Source of the DNA: a virus
Direction: 5' to 3' (one strand)
IMG/VR virus record: IMGVR_UViG_3300027987_000266
DNA length: 18,737 nucleotides
The notes under the pieces: generated by a model
Seen by the model: the letters and a program-made list of their open reading frames with translations, nothing else
The model's database searches: none
What the model was told of the DNA's origin: nothing
Position numbers and translations under genes: made by a program
Part shown: in pieces, positions 1 through 15,202 of the stretch
How positions within the stretch are numbered: position 1 is the stretch's first letter
Layout of the letters: every line of letters starts with the position of its first letter

Positions 1-149
1 ATAACCCAGAGCTTGAGCTTGTCGCTGTCTGAGCCTTTGTTGAGGTCGATTTCGACGAGTTCTTGGCAGCCGCGATACAGCTTGGCCCAAGAGGACGTGC
101 CATGTTTGGCGGTGAGTCCGACCTCTTGGGCGATTTCTTCGGCGATCAT
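1..149 (-). CDS. hypothetical protein. Only the N-terminal 49 aa are visible; the gene runs off the left edge (MIAEEIAQEVGLTAKHGTSSWAKLYRGCQELVEIDLNKGSDSDKLKLWV...)
   Basis: ATG at 149..147 lies 8 nt after the TAA of the upstream gene. The frame stays open to position 1. It shares strand and packing with the rest of the array. There is no strong SD. Confidence 0.35.
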   Translation of the reverse strand, partial: MIAEEIAQEVGLTAKHGTSSWAKLYRGCQELVEIDLNKGSDSDKLKLWV

Positions 150-157
150 GTGGGCTG

Positions 158-514
158 TTAGATCGGCCATTCGTTGTTCGGTGCCTTGATGACGATTTCT
201 TGGGCTTGTTCGATGCTGACTCCGGCTCCGCAGAGGAAGGCGAGCAGCATGCCGCTCCAATCGTAGGAGTTGTACGGGTCGATGCGTTGTGAATTGTTGT
301 AGATCTCGCCGATCCATCGTTGGCGGACTGGTTCGAGGTCTTGGTCGCCGAACTTGCGGAATTGGGTGATGGCGTGTTGCAGTCCCTCAAGTCCGATTTG
401 GCGGGTTTGGACGGTGCTGATGCGGACGGGGAGTGCTGCTTGGCCTGCCGGAATTGGGCGGTCGGTGAGCATGCAGTTGGCTTTGCCGGTGGCTGTTTTG
501 GTGGCTTCTATCAT
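158..514 (-). CDS. hypothetical protein, 118 aa
   Basis: ATG at 514 is preceded by AGGAGAaacaa. Start and stop are both inside ATGA overlaps. The ORF track confirms the frame. Confidence 0.7.
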   Translation of the reverse strand: MIEATKTATGKANCMLTDRPIPAGQAALPVRISTVQTRQIGLEGLQHAITQFRKFGDQDLEPVRQRWIGEIYNNSQRIDPYNSYDWSGMLLAFLCGAGVSIEQAQEIVIKAPNNEWPI

Positions 515-618
515 TTGTTTCTCCTGAATAGACGGCTGAGGAGTCGTAGAATCCAGTGCTGCTTTTTGGGCTTGATGCGGGCTTGCAGGAGTTTGATGGC
601 TGTTTCTTCGTCCGTCAT
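511..618 (-). CDS. small basic protein, 35 aa (MTDEETAIKLLQARIKPKKQHWILRLLSRLFRRNK). It is below the 60-aa ORF-track cutoff and so absent from the track.
   Basis: ATG 618..616 overlaps the TGA of the upstream gene (ATGA). Its TGA 513..511 overlaps the ATG of the downstream gene (ATGA). It fills a 100-nt gap that is otherwise unexplained. Codon use matches the neighbours. Confidence 0.4.
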   Translation of the reverse strand: MTDEETAIKLLQARIKPKKQHWILRLLSRLFRRNK

Positions 619-1070
619 TTCGCCTCCGCTGGAAGGAATCGGCGGCAGGTGTCGGGCTTAATGGGTGTCTTGATTTGGACGAATCGCCGGTCTGGGTCGG
701 CTAAAGTTGCGTGCACTCCGTCGATCTCCATGATCGTGTACTCTTCGTCGTTGTGAATCAGTGTGCCGTGATCACGACTGATAACGACGAGATCACCGGG
801 AGTGCCGGGATCGACGACGTCGGCCAGCAGAATCCAGTATTGGTTGTTGGCGTGTTCCAGCTTCTGCGTGGACTGCAGGAGGTAAAACTCGAAATCGACT
901 GTTCCGGCCATTTCAGCACTCCAACCAAGGGATTTCAGGGCGGTTGCGGCGAGTCCTTGCTTGATGCTCGCCGCCATAAGTGCTTGTTGCGGATCGTCTG
1001 TGGCGAGATAAATGGAGTCGTAGACGCTTCCGATTGAGTTCCTGATTCTCCAAACGTGCATGTTAGTCAT
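615..1070 (-). CDS. hypothetical protein, 151 aa from ATG 1070 (the ORF track extends it to 1106). Member of the C-terminal DLADP-module family (..YTIMEIDGVHATLADPDRRFVQIK..)
   Basis: ATG 1070..1068 sits in a gATGAc-taa context that overlaps the upstream stop by 8 nt. Long ORF. Confidence 0.6.
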   Translation of the reverse strand: MTNMHVWRIRNSIGSVYDSIYLATDDPQQALMAASIKQGLAATALKSLGWSAEMAGTVDFEFYLLQSTQKLEHANNQYWILLADVVDPGTPGDLVVISRDHGTLIHNDEEYTIMEIDGVHATLADPDRRFVQIKTPIKPDTCRRFLPAEAK

Positions 1071-8186: not shown

Positions 8187-8857
8187 TCGCCGTCGAGTAT
8201 CCTTTTCGTGTTGCCCTCGACTTCGTCCTTTGGTGTGGTGCGTAGGGCAATGACGGTTTGTTCGATCTGTTCGAGTTCCTCATCTTCAATGCGGAAGTGT
8301 CTTTTGACGGCGTGTCGCCACGGGAAGTCGAGGTCGTACGGGTCGATGTTGAACCATTTTCGCAAGGCCCAGGCGACGAGCATTCTGCCGAGTGTGAATT
8401 TCTTGGATTCCTCTTTTGGCGGGGCTTCGTCGGGGACAAAGACGTATTCTTGGTCGGTGTCCTTGTATTGTCGCTTCCATTTGGAGGGGCGTTTGTTGTG
8501 TTCTTTGATGTGCTTGTCGAGGAATGCACCTAGGACGTCACAGAAGTCGGGGCGGTAAATGTCGATTCTGATTTCGTCGAAAGCGTTGACTGGTCTGCCG
8601 GTGATGGTGTGGTAGCGGAGGTCCCACCGCTCCAGCCGGATAGGTTTGTCGTCCTTGAAGGCGATCACTTTCACGGCGGCTCGGTCTGGGTCGTAGGTGA
8701 TGTAGATCGGGCCTTCGTACTCGATCACGCGTTTGGTTTGTTCGGCGTAGCAGACGGTGTGGACGTGGTAGTTGTCGGAACGGTGCTTGATGCCTCGTTC
8801 TCGCATTGTGACGCGGATCAGTTCTCTGACGCCTTTTGTGATTTGTTCCATCACCAT
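8171..8857 (-). CDS. hypothetical protein, 228 aa
   Basis: ATG at 8857. Long clean ORF. Confidence 0.7.
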   Translation of the reverse strand: MVMEQITKGVRELIRVTMRERGIKHRSDNYHVHTVCYAEQTKRVIEYEGPIYITYDPDRAAVKVIAFKDDKPIRLERWDLRYHTITGRPVNAFDEIRIDIYRPDFCDVLGAFLDKHIKEHNKRPSKWKRQYKDTDQEYVFVPDEAPPKEESKKFTLGRMLVAWALRKWFNIDPYDLDFPWRHAVKRHFRIEDEELEQIEQTVIALRTTPKDEVEGNTKRILDGEWTEF

Positions 8858-9006
8858 GCCCTATCTGAAACTCGGTCTGGCAGAAATCGCTTCCAGAGCC
8901 AGTAGTCGAGTGCCTTGTTGAGTGTTGACTTTCTCCATGGCGGCTGCTTTTTTGGCGGCAGGAGAAGCCAGCGTTTGTGGATTTTCTTTGCCTGCCTCTT
9001 TTTCAT
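8851..9006 (-). CDS. small basic Trp-rich protein, 51 aa (MKKRQAKKIHKRWLLLPPKKQPPWRKSTLNKALDYWLWKRFLPDRVSDRAW). Absent from the ORF track because it is under 60 aa.
   Basis: ATG 9006..9004 overlaps the TGA of the upstream gene (ATGA). The stop overlaps the ATGgtg start of the downstream gene by 7 nt. It fills a 145-nt gap. Confidence 0.4.
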   Translation of the reverse strand: MKKRQAKKIHKRWLLLPPKKQPPWRKSTLNKALDYWLWKRFLPDRVSDRAW

Positions 9007-9359: not shown

Positions 9360-9538
9360 GCTGCTTTCTGCCAACAAGTCTTGTCGTTGATCTCTTCGTC
9401 GTAATAGCGGAATTCGGGTTGTCGGCCTTCGTTCTTGAGTGCGGCGATAATCCGGAAAAGGGCCGCTGGCTCTTCGGTCTTGATGGTGGCTGTCATTCCG
9501 TCGAATTTGACTTCGACTTCGGTGGTGTTGGTTCGCAT
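9356..9538 (-). CDS. hypothetical small protein, about 60 aa (start uncertain: 9538 has AAGGA-8nt-ATG; 9496 gives an ATGA overlap and 46 aa)
   Basis: ORF track. Candidate starts all have SD or coupling signals. Confidence 0.4.
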   Translation of the reverse strand: MRTNTTEVEVKFDGMTATIKTEEPAALFRIIAALKNEGRQPEFRYYDEEINDKTCWQKAA

Positions 9539-12528: not shown

Positions 12529-12920
12529 GATTCTATGGAGTCAGGATCGGCTAAGTCCCACTTGTACGGACTTGTGGGAGTATCGCCGACGACTCGTGCT
12601 CCGAATTCGTCGTGGCCGATCTCTCGGTGGAGTACCAGTTCGAGACGGTTACCACGGATTTTGAACGTGGCGGCCTTGAAGTATCGGTCTTTGAAGGCTT
12701 CGATTTCTTCGGCTGTCTCTGCCAGACTCGCATCAGCACCACGGTAAATGTCGTAGTGGGCGAAGAGCGTGCCGACGCCTCTTTTGATGAGCAGGTGGTC
12801 CCACGAAGATAGGTACAAGCGAAGGGCGTCGGCAATAGTGCCGACGCCCATCGAATTCTCTGCTCGACGTCTGCTTTGTTCGCTTCTGTCGATTGCTTGT
12901 TGGGACGATCTGACCGTCAC
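12462..12920 (-). CDS. hypothetical protein, 152 aa. DLADP-module family (..KAATFKIRGNRLELVLH..YKWDLADPDSIESCIKKLHWHLKRL..)
   Basis: GTGA overlap with the ligase stop. Confidence 0.7.
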   Translation of the reverse strand: MTVRSSQQAIDRSEQSRRRAENSMGVGTIADALRLYLSSWDHLLIKRGVGTLFAHYDIYRGADASLAETAEEIEAFKDRYFKAATFKIRGNRLELVLHREIGHDEFGARVVGDTPTSPYKWDLADPDSIESCIKKLHWHLKRLGYPNERPAL

Positions 12921-15202
12921 GCTTCGACCGGCTCCTTTTTCGGCAGTTCGGCCTGACCATCCAGCACTTTGCGGATGAAGGCCAAGCTGACGATCTGCGT
13001 GTAGCCGTTGGCTTCCGCATTTTTGGCCTTGTTGGTGACCTGCGTGGCGTCTTTCTGGATCAGGAAGTCGGGAGAGGGCTTGGACTTGGCCACGCCGCTC
13101 GTGAAGACTCCGCCCTTGGCTTCGATCTCGTCCATGTAGGCACGAGTCCCGGTGATGCAGAAGGTGAGTCCGGCGAGGGGCAGATTCGGGTCTGCTTGTC
13201 CGTTGCCGGTGGTCGCGGTTGGGGCGGGCTTTGCTGCGGGGTAGTCGATGGTCACGCCGACTGCCAGCAGCTTGTCGATCAATCCACGGCTCTCTTTGAT
13301 GCCGTGAACCACCGCGTCGCGGATCGTGTCGCCGAGTCCCTCAATCTCCATCTTCGCGAATTCGTCAGTGTCCAGCCAGTCTTCGAGCTTGTCGAGACGG
13401 CCACCGGCTGCGTCGCGGAGCAGGATCACGCGTCGGCGTCCGAGCAGGTCGATACCGAGTGATCCGAGGAAGACCTCCAGCTTGAGATTCCGCTTGTTCT
13501 GGATGTTGTTCACGATCGTCTCGGCTCGCGATCGTCCCACTCGCCCGCCGCTGTCAAGCGTCAGGTTCTCCAAATCCTCAGGCTTGAGGTTGTAGAGATC
13601 GGCGGGATCGCTGACGATGTTGTTGTCCCACATGGCCTTGAGGATGCCGTCACCGATGTTCAGGATTCCGGTTCCCTTCTTCGACGAACCGATCCACTTG
13701 TCGACTTTGCCCTTCAATGCCTCAGGGCATTTGTCGGCTTGTGAGCAGTACGTCACAGCTCCCTTCTTGCCGCGATAGTTGCGGGTGGTCGGCTCGCCGC
13801 AGGACGGGCATCGCTTCGGCTCTTCGATTGGCTTGCGATTCGGGGATTCGGTGACGCACCGAATGACCTTCGGGATAATGTCCCCGGCCAGCACGACCTC
13901 GACTTCGTCGTTGATGGCGACGCCGAGCCGCTCGATCTCGTCCCAATTGTTCAGCAGTGCGTGCGTCACGTTGACGCCACCGATGCGGACTTCCTCGAAG
14001 ACGGCGGTCGGGTAGATTCCTCCGGTGTGGCCGACGCTGAGAATGACGTCCTTGATTGTCGTCGTGTTCGATTTGTGCGGGAACTTGACGGCACGAGCGT
14101 ACTTGGGCCGCAGCCGCGTCTTGATGTCGTCGGTGATGAATGGAAGGTGGTAGGCGATCTCATTGAGGACCACCACGATTCCGTCGATTTCGAACGGCAG
14201 CTTGTCGCGGTTGGCAACTGTCTCGGTGTAGAAGTCGTTGAACTCGTCGACAGTTGTGCAGACTTTGTACGGGACGGGCTGGAAGCCGAGGCCGCGAAGG
14301 CTCTCCATCTTCTCCGCTTCTGTGTGGAACTTGGCGGCGTCGTGCTGCTCATCGCCATCGAACTCGACATTGAAAGCGATGAAGGTGATTCTCTCGGAAT
14401 CCTGGCCGTCGTCGCGACCGAACACGCCGTTCCCGATGTTGCGGGGATTGCTGCGGTCGGCTTCGGGAATCTGATCGAACGGCTGACCGGCGTCACGCTC
14501 GACGACCTCTTTGTAGTCGGCGACGTACATGACCGCCTCACCGCGAACGTCGCAGCTGACGGAGTGCGGCAGGATTGTGGGCAGTCGCCGGAAGTTGGCT
14601 CCGTTCACCGTGATGTCTTGGCCGGTCTCGCCGTCACCGCGTGTGGCGACACGGACCAGTTTGCCATTCTCGTAGGTGGCACAGATGCTTCCGCCATCGA
14701 CCTTGAGAGAGGCGAAAATCTCGACAGGCAGATCGGCGTCGGGCACGTCGTTGACAATCCCCTCTGCCGCGAGACGCTGGCGAGTGGCTTCGACGACGTC
14801 GGCTGCAGCTGAGTGCAGCTTCGTCGTTACGTCTTCGAGCCACGGCTCGTAACCAGCGATGCCGTTGTCGGTGTTGTCGAGCGATCCCATCGGGATGTTG
14901 TGCTTGACCTTGTTGCGAAGGTCGCCAGCGTCGAACGGGAGGCCGACTCGACCAATCCGCTCGTCATTGGGATCGAGTTGTTTCAGAGCGGGCCGCAACA
15001 GATCGTAGTCGGAGTCCGGCATGATCTGAGACGAGCCTGGGCGGTAGTAGGCGACGTCGGCTTTGTCGATGATCAGCCGAAGCTCGTCGGCCGTCAGTTC
15101 GTTGACGGCGTAGCCTGCTCCGTCTTGGTAGAGCTTGAAGAGTTCGACTCGACGATCGGACTCACGGATCAGGTTGAGCCATTGCGGTGCAGCGTTCGGC
15201 AT
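12917..15202 (-). CDS. ligA: NAD(+)-dependent DNA ligase LigA, 761 aa
   Basis: Adenylation KxDG block SLKVDGGSICATYENGKLVRVATRGDGETGQDIT aligns closely with E. coli LigA. N-terminal Ia-like YRPGSSQIMPDSDYDLLRPALKQL. Four-Cys zinc finger CPSCGEP...YCSQADKCPE. HhH region GLGDTIRDAVVHGI. C-terminal BRCT-like LAGLTFCITGTRAYMDEIEAKGGVF... Confidence 0.93.
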   Translation of the reverse strand: MPNAAPQWLNLIRESDRRVELFKLYQDGAGYAVNELTADELRLIIDKADVAYYRPGSSQIMPDSDYDLLRPALKQLDPNDERIGRVGLPFDAGDLRNKVKHNIPMGSLDNTDNGIAGYEPWLEDVTTKLHSAAADVVEATRQRLAAEGIVNDVPDADLPVEIFASLKVDGGSICATYENGKLVRVATRGDGETGQDITVNGANFRRLPTILPHSVSCDVRGEAVMYVADYKEVVERDAGQPFDQIPEADRSNPRNIGNGVFGRDDGQDSERITFIAFNVEFDGDEQHDAAKFHTEAEKMESLRGLGFQPVPYKVCTTVDEFNDFYTETVANRDKLPFEIDGIVVVLNEIAYHLPFITDDIKTRLRPKYARAVKFPHKSNTTTIKDVILSVGHTGGIYPTAVFEEVRIGGVNVTHALLNNWDEIERLGVAINDEVEVVLAGDIIPKVIRCVTESPNRKPIEEPKRCPSCGEPTTRNYRGKKGAVTYCSQADKCPEALKGKVDKWIGSSKKGTGILNIGDGILKAMWDNNIVSDPADLYNLKPEDLENLTLDSGGRVGRSRAETIVNNIQNKRNLKLEVFLGSLGIDLLGRRRVILLRDAAGGRLDKLEDWLDTDEFAKMEIEGLGDTIRDAVVHGIKESRGLIDKLLAVGVTIDYPAAKPAPTATTGNGQADPNLPLAGLTFCITGTRAYMDEIEAKGGVFTSGVAKSKPSPDFLIQKDATQVTNKAKNAEANGYTQIVSLAFIRKVLDGQAELPKKEPVEA

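What the first reader, a model, noticed from the sequence alone, without database searches (positions are those of the whole stretch)
511..618. Missed 35-aa basic ORF flanked by ATGA overlaps at both ends
The 100-nt gap between the genes ending at 514 and 615 encodes MTDEETAIKLLQARIKPKKQHWILRLLSRLFRRNK on the minus strand. Its ATG overlaps the upstream TGA and its TGA overlaps the downstream ATG, exactly the coupling arrangement used throughout this array. It looks like a small amphipathic basic protein. Small basic phage proteins are often nucleic-acid binders or host-factor inhibitors.
Basis: seen in the sequence. Interest (0 to 1): 0.5.

Follow-up and report, generated by a model that had tools for sequence, protein, structure and literature searches.

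The report
Small orphan gene in phage array
The 35-codon reading frame is real and is probably a genuine small gene of an uncultivated large phage, but standard gene callers already predict it, it has no relatives anywhere, and its function can only be guessed, so it is an ordinary orphan phage microprotein.

Summary
The ORF at 511..618 (minus strand) exists exactly as described. It encodes MTDEETAIKLLQARIKPKKQHWILRLLSRLFRRNK, and both ends are 4-nt ATGA overlaps with the neighbouring genes (615..1070 and 158..514).

An open frame of this length is common here (27-40% by chance). The full ATGA/ATGA arrangement has roughly a 1-4% chance.

Evidence that it is coding:
- Codon usage sits inside the range of real genes. 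Only 0.18% of composition-matched open shuffles reach it, and 0 of 4793 open off-frame windows do.
- A rare GGAGG lies 4 nt upstream of its ATG.
- Only 3 of 30 junctions in the array have gaps over 10 nt.
- There is no promoter, terminator, Rfam hit or stable RNA fold.

The ORF was not missed. The gene calls held for the JGI and Logan assemblies carrying this sequence include it.

Conservation cannot be tested. The only other copies are 99.97% identical. In the distant relatives found through the upstream gene, this slot holds unrelated 64-66-aa genes or nothing.

The predicted product is 4.3 kDa with pI 11.5, and has two helices, the C-terminal one strongly amphipathic and cationic. Its function is unknown. 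Binding to an anionic host target is inference only. Interest is low.

The parts
511..618 (-). 35-codon ORF encoding MTDEETAIKLLQARIKPKKQHWILRLLSRLFRRNK (4.3 kDa, pI 11.5)
   Evidence: for the sequence. for codon usage. Searches show it is called as a gene in the JGI and Logan assemblies. Searches give the peptide properties and the two-helix model.
615..618 (-). ATGA junction: the start of the small ORF overlaps the TGA stop of the upstream 151-aa gene
623..627 (-). GGAGG Shine-Dalgarno-like motif, 4 nt upstream of the small ORF's ATG, inside the 3' end of the upstream gene
   Evidence: GGAGG occurs only 8 times in 12.4 kb of the array, and 3 of those lie 3-11 nt upstream of called starts (about 0.18 expected).
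511..514 (-). ATGA junction: the TGA stop of the small ORF overlaps the ATG of the downstream 118-aa gene
521..525 (-). AGGAG Shine-Dalgarno-like motif for the downstream 118-aa gene, lying inside the small ORF, 6 nt upstream of that ATG
615..1070 (-). Upstream 151-aa gene. It is the only neighbour with detectable distant relatives. Its C-terminus aligns with the ends of those relatives, so the small ORF is not a frameshifted tail of this gene.
158..514 (-). Downstream 118-aa orphan gene, coupled to the small ORF
   Evidence: only itself found. One search gives a low-confidence model.

Best explanation
511..618 (minus strand) is a genuine, translated, lineage-specific small gene. It sits in a long one-directional array of tightly packed orphan genes in an uncultivated large phage. 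Contigs of 111 kb and 147 kb come from the same population. The array lies between an NAD-dependent DNA ligase and a helicase.

Inferred mechanism of expression: ribosomes finishing the 151-aa gene terminate at TGA within ATGA and restart on the small ORF, helped by the GGAGG 4 nt upstream. Ribosomes finishing the small ORF then restart on the 118-aa gene, helped by an AGGAG inside the small ORF. The three products would therefore be made in a coupled way.

The product is a 4.3-kDa, strongly basic helix-loop-helix. It has an acidic N-terminal helix and a cationic, highly amphipathic, Trp-containing C-terminal helix. My best guess is that it acts by docking that helix onto an anionic host surface, either membrane or nucleic acid, or onto a partner protein such as the co-translated 118-aa product.

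Shown: the ORF, the overlaps, the Shine-Dalgarno-like motifs, gene-like codon usage and the predicted helices. Inferred: translation, coupling and any target. The confidence given is for 'real translated coupled gene'; any specific target would rate no more than about 0.2.
For: - The ORF and both overlaps are verified.
- Per-codon codon-usage score is 0.23, against 0.37 +/- 0.19 for real coding windows (24th percentile). Only 0.18% of composition-matched, stop-free shuffles reach it, and 0 of 4793 stop-free off-frame same-strand windows do.
- GGAGG is rare and enriched at starts, and one lies 4 nt before this ATG.
- The array is packed: 12 of 30 junctions are -4 overlaps and only 3 gaps exceed 10 nt. 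A 100-nt non-coding gap would be atypical.
- No promoter-like or terminator-like site lies in the interval. The RNA folds no better than shuffles, z = +1.0. There is no Rfam family or tRNA.
- The gene calls held for two separate assemblies, JGI and Logan, both include it.
- Other small genes of 32, 51 and 63 aa with similar scores sit in the same array.
- In relatives, the slot just after the 151-aa-family gene also holds small, tightly joined genes.
- AlphaFold on the single sequence gives pLDDT 80.8 with helices at 3-14 and 17-34.
Against: - There is no evolutionary evidence. The only other copies are 99.97% identical and have no substitution in the ORF.
- No homologue of the peptide was found anywhere.
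- Thirty-four codons give little statistical power. 25% of stop-free windows antisense to real genes also reach the same codon score.
- An open frame here is common by chance, 27-40%.
- The 4-nt SD spacer is at the short end of the usual range (own knowledge).
- GC content is 0.49 against 0.555 for the window, which puts it in the lowest 9% of 108-nt windows.
- The phage assignment rests on an IMG/VR label for the adjoining contig and on PHROG hits for the ligase and helicase only.
Confidence: 0.62

Rival explanations
1. The interval is a non-coding spacer, for example the scar of a recombination junction in a variable slot. The frame is open and has ATGA at both ends by chance. The downstream 118-aa gene is then initiated independently from its own AGGAG.
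For: An open frame is expected in 27-40% of such gaps, and the full arrangement in roughly 1-4%. There is no conservation evidence. GC content is lower than the surroundings. The slot is variable in relatives. Three real gaps over 10 nt exist in the array.
Against: The codon-usage score is far above composition-matched open shuffles (P = 0.0018) and above open off-frame windows (0 of 4793). A rare GGAGG lies just upstream of the ATG. No regulatory or RNA element was found that would justify a spacer.
Confidence: 0.2
2. The ORF is translated, but what matters is the act of translating it, not the peptide. It would be a relay ORF that carries ribosomes from the 151-aa gene to the 118-aa gene and sets their expression ratio.
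For: There are ATGA overlaps at both ends, and the SD of the 118-aa gene is embedded in the small ORF. Coupling via termination-reinitiation at such overlaps is well documented (PMC6728339; PMC10666635). The peptide has no homologues.
Against: The peptide has an ordered, strongly amphipathic two-helix design and a confident model, and its codon usage is gene-like. Neither would be required of a mere relay. In the relative L008 the 151-aa-family gene overlaps the next gene directly, so no relay is needed for coupling.
Confidence: 0.12
3. The interval belongs to a neighbouring gene. Either it is a frameshifted C-terminal extension of the 151-aa gene, or it is an N-terminal extension of the 118-aa gene, whose frame is also open across the gap.
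For: The 118-aa frame is open for 62 codons upstream of its ATG. The small ORF is in the -1 frame relative to the 151-aa gene.
Against: There is no ATG, GTG or TTG in the 118-aa frame upstream of position 514. That frame scores -0.33 per codon across the gap. Homologues of the 151-aa protein end at the same place, at ...KPD..R.L plus 1-15 residues, with nothing resembling the peptide. Inspection shows no slippery heptamer at GGCGAAATGA. Three assemblies agree in sequence, so a sequencing frameshift is unlikely.
Confidence: 0.03

Closest known systems
Overlapping ATGA gene pairs coupled by termination-reinitiation (Huber et al. 2019, PMC6728339; PMC10666635)
   Same: Genes on the same strand with a 4-nt stop/start overlap, and a Shine-Dalgarno motif inside the upstream gene. 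Here this occurs twice in a row, at 615..618 and 511..514.
   Different: Coupling has not been measured here. The middle cistron is only 35 codons, and the host and its ribosome-binding rules are unknown. Only about a third of starts in this array show any SD motif.
Phage small proteins under 100 aa that act on host factors, such as lambda Kil and T7 Gp0.4 (FtsZ inhibitors) and T7 Gp4.5 (Lon protease inhibitor) (review PMC11323111)
   Same: Its size class, and its location in a dense array of small orphan genes next to DNA-metabolism genes in a phage genome.
   Different: It has no sequence or profile similarity to any of them or to any PHROG, Pfam or NCBIfam family. No target is known. The resemblance is by category only.
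Cationic amphipathic helices that seek anionic surfaces, such as antimicrobial-peptide-like helices and the membrane-targeting helices of MinD and FtsA (own knowledge)
   Same: The C-terminal 15 residues, HWILRLLSRLFRRNK, have hydrophobic moment 0.72 (peak 1.08), low mean hydrophobicity, net positive charge and a Trp.
   Different: This is a physico-chemical resemblance only, and no binding has been shown. An acidic N-terminal helix precedes this segment and could mask it in a hairpin.

Membership tests
Translationally coupled overlapping gene pair (termination-reinitiation) | Co-directional genes whose stop and start codons overlap (ATGA or TGATG) | tested here: met
   ATGA at 615..618 and at 511..514 on the minus strand
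Translationally coupled overlapping gene pair (termination-reinitiation) | Shine-Dalgarno-like motif inside the upstream gene at a suitable distance | tested here: met
   GGAGG at 623..627 with a 4-nt spacer, and AGGAG at 521..525 with a 6-nt spacer
Translationally coupled overlapping gene pair (termination-reinitiation) | Translation of the downstream gene depends on translation of the upstream gene | not testable with these tools
   This needs reporter constructs with premature stops in the upstream gene.
Bona fide protein-coding gene | Codon usage like that of the genome's other genes, and unlike off-frame or random open sequence | tested here: met
   Score of 0.23 per codon. This is the 24th percentile of coding windows, P = 0.0018 against open shuffles, and 0 of 4793 open off-frame windows reach it.
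Bona fide protein-coding gene | Frame conserved, with mostly synonymous change, in related genomes | tested here: inconclusive
   The only other copies are 99.97% identical, with no substitution in the ORF. Distant relatives carry unrelated genes in this slot. No other relatives turned up in the protein searches or the viral, metagenome and genome contig scans.
Bona fide protein-coding gene | Detected product (ribosome footprints or peptide) | not testable with these tools
   The phage is uncultivated and no expression data are accessible here.
Any described protein family (Pfam, PHROGs, NCBIfam, PDB sequences, cultured phages) | Significant sequence or profile match | tested here: not met
   No hit even at E <= 10 in Pfam, at E <= 0.01 in PHROGs, at E <= 1 in NCBIfam, in PDB or in the phage tblastn search. 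Foldseek against PDB also gave none.
Cationic amphipathic surface-binding helices | Net positive charge with a high helical hydrophobic moment | tested here: met
   Charge +6.6, pI 11.5, hydrophobic moment 0.72 over residues 21-35, helix predicted at 17-34
Cationic amphipathic surface-binding helices | Demonstrated binding to membrane or nucleic acid | not testable with these tools
   This needs synthetic peptide assays.

The most novel reading that the evidence does not exclude
The peptide is a newly arisen, lineage-specific phage microprotein. Its cationic amphipathic C-terminal helix would act directly on the host, for example by perturbing or targeting the membrane or by sequestering nucleic acid. 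It would have been inserted as a cassette into a hot-spot slot just downstream of the 151-aa-family gene, where different relatives carry different small genes.
Probability: 0.15. Interest if true: 0.4.

Novelty: new member of a known kind. Interest (0 to 1): 0.15.

Why it matters
If the gene is real, it adds one more orphan microprotein to the very large pool of uncharacterised phage small proteins. The review PMC11323111 speaks of millions of phage small proteins. It would also be a tidy example of two consecutive ATGA couplings through a 35-codon cistron. It does not open a new question. Its practical use would be as a candidate for toxicity or host-takeover screens of synthetic phage peptides. 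It is also a reminder that short ORFs filling gaps in packed phage arrays are usually already captured by standard gene callers.

Tried and rejected
- **Fused query.** A 151+35+118 aa query returned nothing, not even the proteins themselves, so I treat that search as uninformative.
- **118-aa neighbour.** It found only itself.
- **Contig scans with neighbouring proteins.**
  - Scans of viral contigs with four single neighbouring proteins found nothing.
  - Profile scans of viral contigs, metagenome contigs and genome contigs also found nothing.
  - The one exception was an IMG/VR contig of the same phage, which stops 144 nt inside the window's left end and so lacks the ORF.
- **Cultured phages.** There was no DNA match. 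The 332-aa protein and the peptide had no tblastn match.
- **Paralogy.** The other small basic gene in the window (51 aa) shows no similarity to the peptide.
- **Structure of the 118-aa partner.** The model had pLDDT 51, too poor for a fold search.
- **Fold search of the peptide model against PDB.** No match, and little could be expected for a 35-residue two-helix peptide.
- **Non-coding alternatives.** These were rejected: no promoter-like or terminator-like site, no stable RNA fold, no Rfam family or tRNA.
- **Antisense ORFs.** The plus-strand ORFs 320..661 and 556..756 score -0.29 to -0.89 per codon across the interval and were rejected.
- **Frameshift or extension readings.** Rejected for the reasons given under the rival explanations.

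Full report
**1. The observation**

The minus strand of 511..618 carries ATG, 34 sense codons and TGA. It encodes MTDEETAIKLLQARIKPKKQHWILRLLSRLFRRNK.

- Its ATG (616..618) overlaps the TGA (615..617) of the upstream gene.
- Its TGA (511..513) overlaps the ATG (512..514) of the downstream gene.
- The upstream gene is best read as 615..1070 (151 aa, ATG start), as in the public gene calls. The downstream gene is 158..514 (118 aa).

**2. More than chance?**

Openness alone is not informative.

- The gene strand is T-poor. A first-order Markov simulation leaves a 35-codon frame open 40% of the time, and shuffling the real 100-nt gap leaves it open 27% of the time.
- The complete arrangement (ATG overlapping the upstream TGA, an open frame, and TGA overlapping the downstream ATG) arises in 3.7% of simulations once the gap length is in the right class. 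That is about 1% overall.

The composition evidence is stronger. I trained a codon table on 34 longer genes of the same genome.

| Sequence set | Score per codon | Comparison with the ORF (0.23) |
|---|---|---|
| True coding windows | 0.37 +/- 0.19 | ORF is at the 24th percentile |
| Stop-free, composition-matched shuffles | -0.24 +/- 0.16 | P = 0.0018 |
| Stop-free off-frame windows, same strand | -0.33 +/- 0.16 | 0 of 4793 reach it |
| Stop-free windows antisense to real genes | not used as the null | 25% reach it |

The antisense result is a reminder of how little 34 codons can prove. The other five frames of the interval score -0.29 to -0.89.

**3. Translation signals and packing**

- GGAGG (623..627) lies 4 nt upstream of the ATG.
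- AGGAG (521..525) lies inside the small ORF, 6 nt upstream of the next gene's ATG.
- SD motifs are sparse in this array: about 10 of 31 starts have any 4-mer.
- GGAGG occurs only 8 times in 12.4 kb. Three of these lie 3-11 nt before a called start, against 0.18 expected.
- Of 30 junctions between called same-strand genes, 12 are -4 overlaps and most others also overlap. Only three gaps exceed 10 nt.

A 100-nt untranslated spacer would therefore be out of character for the array.

**4. Non-coding alternatives**

- No sigma-70-like promoter or intrinsic-terminator-like site lies in the interval on the gene strand.
- The 146-nt RNA around it folds slightly worse than its shuffles, z = +1.0.
- There is no Rfam family and no tRNA in the window.
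- The 118-aa frame is also open across the gap, for 62 codons. It contains no ATG, GTG or TTG and scores like non-coding sequence.
- Homologues of the 151-aa protein end where it ends, so the ORF is not a frameshifted tail.

**5. Source and 'missed' status**

- The exact peptide is already a predicted protein in the public collection, on two contigs. One is JGI metagenome 3300027985 contig Ga0259481_10000192 (111,253 bp). The other is a Logan assembly of SRR7216773. In both sets of gene calls a 35-aa gene sits at this position.
- These copies are 99.97-99.99% identical to the window. None of their 3 + 1 differences falls in the ORF.
- An IMG/VR viral contig of 146,839 bp from sibling sample 3300027987 overlaps the window's first 144 nt at 100% identity. 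It continues into the downstream region at 99.76% identity to the JGI contig.
- The only recognisable genes nearby are an NAD-dependent DNA ligase at 12917..15202 and, beyond the window, a ResIII/phrog_16 helicase.
- Cultured phages share at most about 30% identity in the ligase and nothing else.

The setting is thus a long early or DNA-metabolism-type array of orphan genes in a large uncultivated phage. The phage assignment rests on the IMG/VR label and these two genes.

**6. Conservation test**

- The 118-aa neighbour has no relatives.
- An exhaustive HMMER search with the 151-aa neighbour found a few distant relatives. A follow-up profile search extended these to five proteins on short metagenome contigs.
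- Synteny is recognisable:
  - Window: 332 aa - 134 - 141 - 151 - [35] - 118 - 90 - gap - 149 aa.
  - L005: 347 aa (39% identical to the 332-aa protein) - 60 - 111 (41% to the 151-aa protein) - 66 - 65 - 169 aa (about 52% to the 149-aa protein).
- The slot directly after the 151-aa-family gene differs between relatives:
  - a 66-aa acidic protein in L005-L007;
  - a 64-aa basic protein joined by an ATGA overlap in L010;
  - nothing in L008, where the following gene overlaps directly.
- None of these resembles the 35-aa peptide.

What the comparison does show is that this junction is a variable slot that repeatedly hosts small, tightly coupled genes.

**7. The product**

- 4.3 kDa, pI 11.5, net charge +6.6.
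- AlphaFold2 without an alignment gives mean pLDDT 80.8 with helices at 3-14 and 17-34, separated at Lys16-Pro17.
- The C-terminal segment HWILRLLSRLFRRNK has a helical hydrophobic moment of 0.72 (11-residue peak 1.08) with low mean hydrophobicity. This is the signature of a surface-seeking cationic amphipathic helix. The N-terminal helix is acidic at its start and only weakly amphipathic.
- There is no match in Pfam, PHROGs, NCBIfam, PDB sequences, PDB folds or cultured phages.
- There is no similarity to the other small basic ORF of the window.
- The 118-aa partner could not be modelled usefully, pLDDT 51.

**8. Mechanism**

The most likely reading is a real small gene expressed by two successive termination-reinitiation events. 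[quoted passage not shown] Such overlapping pairs often encode subunits of one complex (PMC10666635).

What the peptide does is inference only. It might bind an anionic host surface through its C-terminal helix, or serve as a small subunit or modulator of a co-translated neighbour.

Rival readings and my estimates:
- a chance-open spacer in a recombination-prone slot, about 0.2;
- a relay ORF whose translation matters but whose peptide does not, about 0.12;
- part of a neighbouring gene, about 0.03.

**9. Verdict**

It is already predicted by routine gene calling, has no relatives, and belongs to the very common class of orphan phage microproteins (PMC11323111). Novelty: a new member of a known kind. 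Interest: low.

Noticed in passing
window 8851..9006 (-): This is another small, very basic, Trp-rich called gene (51 aa, MKKRQAKKIHKRWLLLPPKKQPPWRKSTLNKALDYWLWKRFLPDRVSDRAW). It is also joined to its upstream neighbour by a -4 overlap. Its codon score is 0.16 per codon. It has no BLASTP similarity to the 35-aa peptide.
   Followed up: partly
window 511..618 compared with L005 2545..2745, L006 376..576, L010 821..1015 and L008 3198..3235: The position directly downstream of the 151-aa-family gene is a variable slot. Different relatives carry unrelated small genes there: 35 aa basic, 66 aa acidic, 64 aa basic, or none. All are tightly abutted to the conserved gene.
   Followed up: partly
window 1..144; L003 10475..11054; L011 1..580: Two independent assemblies break within about 150 nt of each other here. 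The window's contig ends at window position 1. The 146.8-kb IMG/VR contig ends at window position 144. Just beyond lies the only large intergenic gap of the array (332 nt, L003 10722..11053). This could be a repeat, a strain-variable site or a genome end. I did not examine it.
   Followed up: no
window 274 and 293 (inside the 118-aa gene 158..514): Two of the only three differences between the window and the 111-kb JGI contig over 10.6 kb fall within 20 nt of each other in the 118-aa gene. They give a protein variant (P0002 vs P0003, 99% identity). The third difference is at 9386.
   Followed up: no
window 12917..15202 (-): A 761-aa NAD-dependent DNA ligase (Pfam adenylation and OB domains; phrog_3869) is the only gene in the window with a family assignment. 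Its best cultured-phage matches are only 28-30% identical (Escherichia phage Goslar, Microcystis MaMV phages).
   Followed up: partly
L003 11781..11879 (beyond the window's left end): A 32-aa hydrophobic, Pro-rich called gene (MTPGLAIFITLAPPLIIAVLWPRPKNGPPMNW) has an ATGA overlap with its upstream neighbour and a high codon score (0.41). It may be a small membrane protein.
   Followed up: no
window 515..703 (-), frame of the 118-aa gene: The reading frame of the 118-aa gene stays open for 62 codons upstream of its ATG. This spans the small ORF and the end of the 151-aa gene. It has no ATG, GTG or TTG and poor codon score, so it looks like a chance effect of the T-poor strand.
   Followed up: yes
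(tool behaviour): A fused 304-aa query (151 + 35 + 118 aa) to the search for homologous proteins returned no hit at E <= 10, although its parts are representatives in that collection. That negative result should not be counted as evidence.
   Followed up: no
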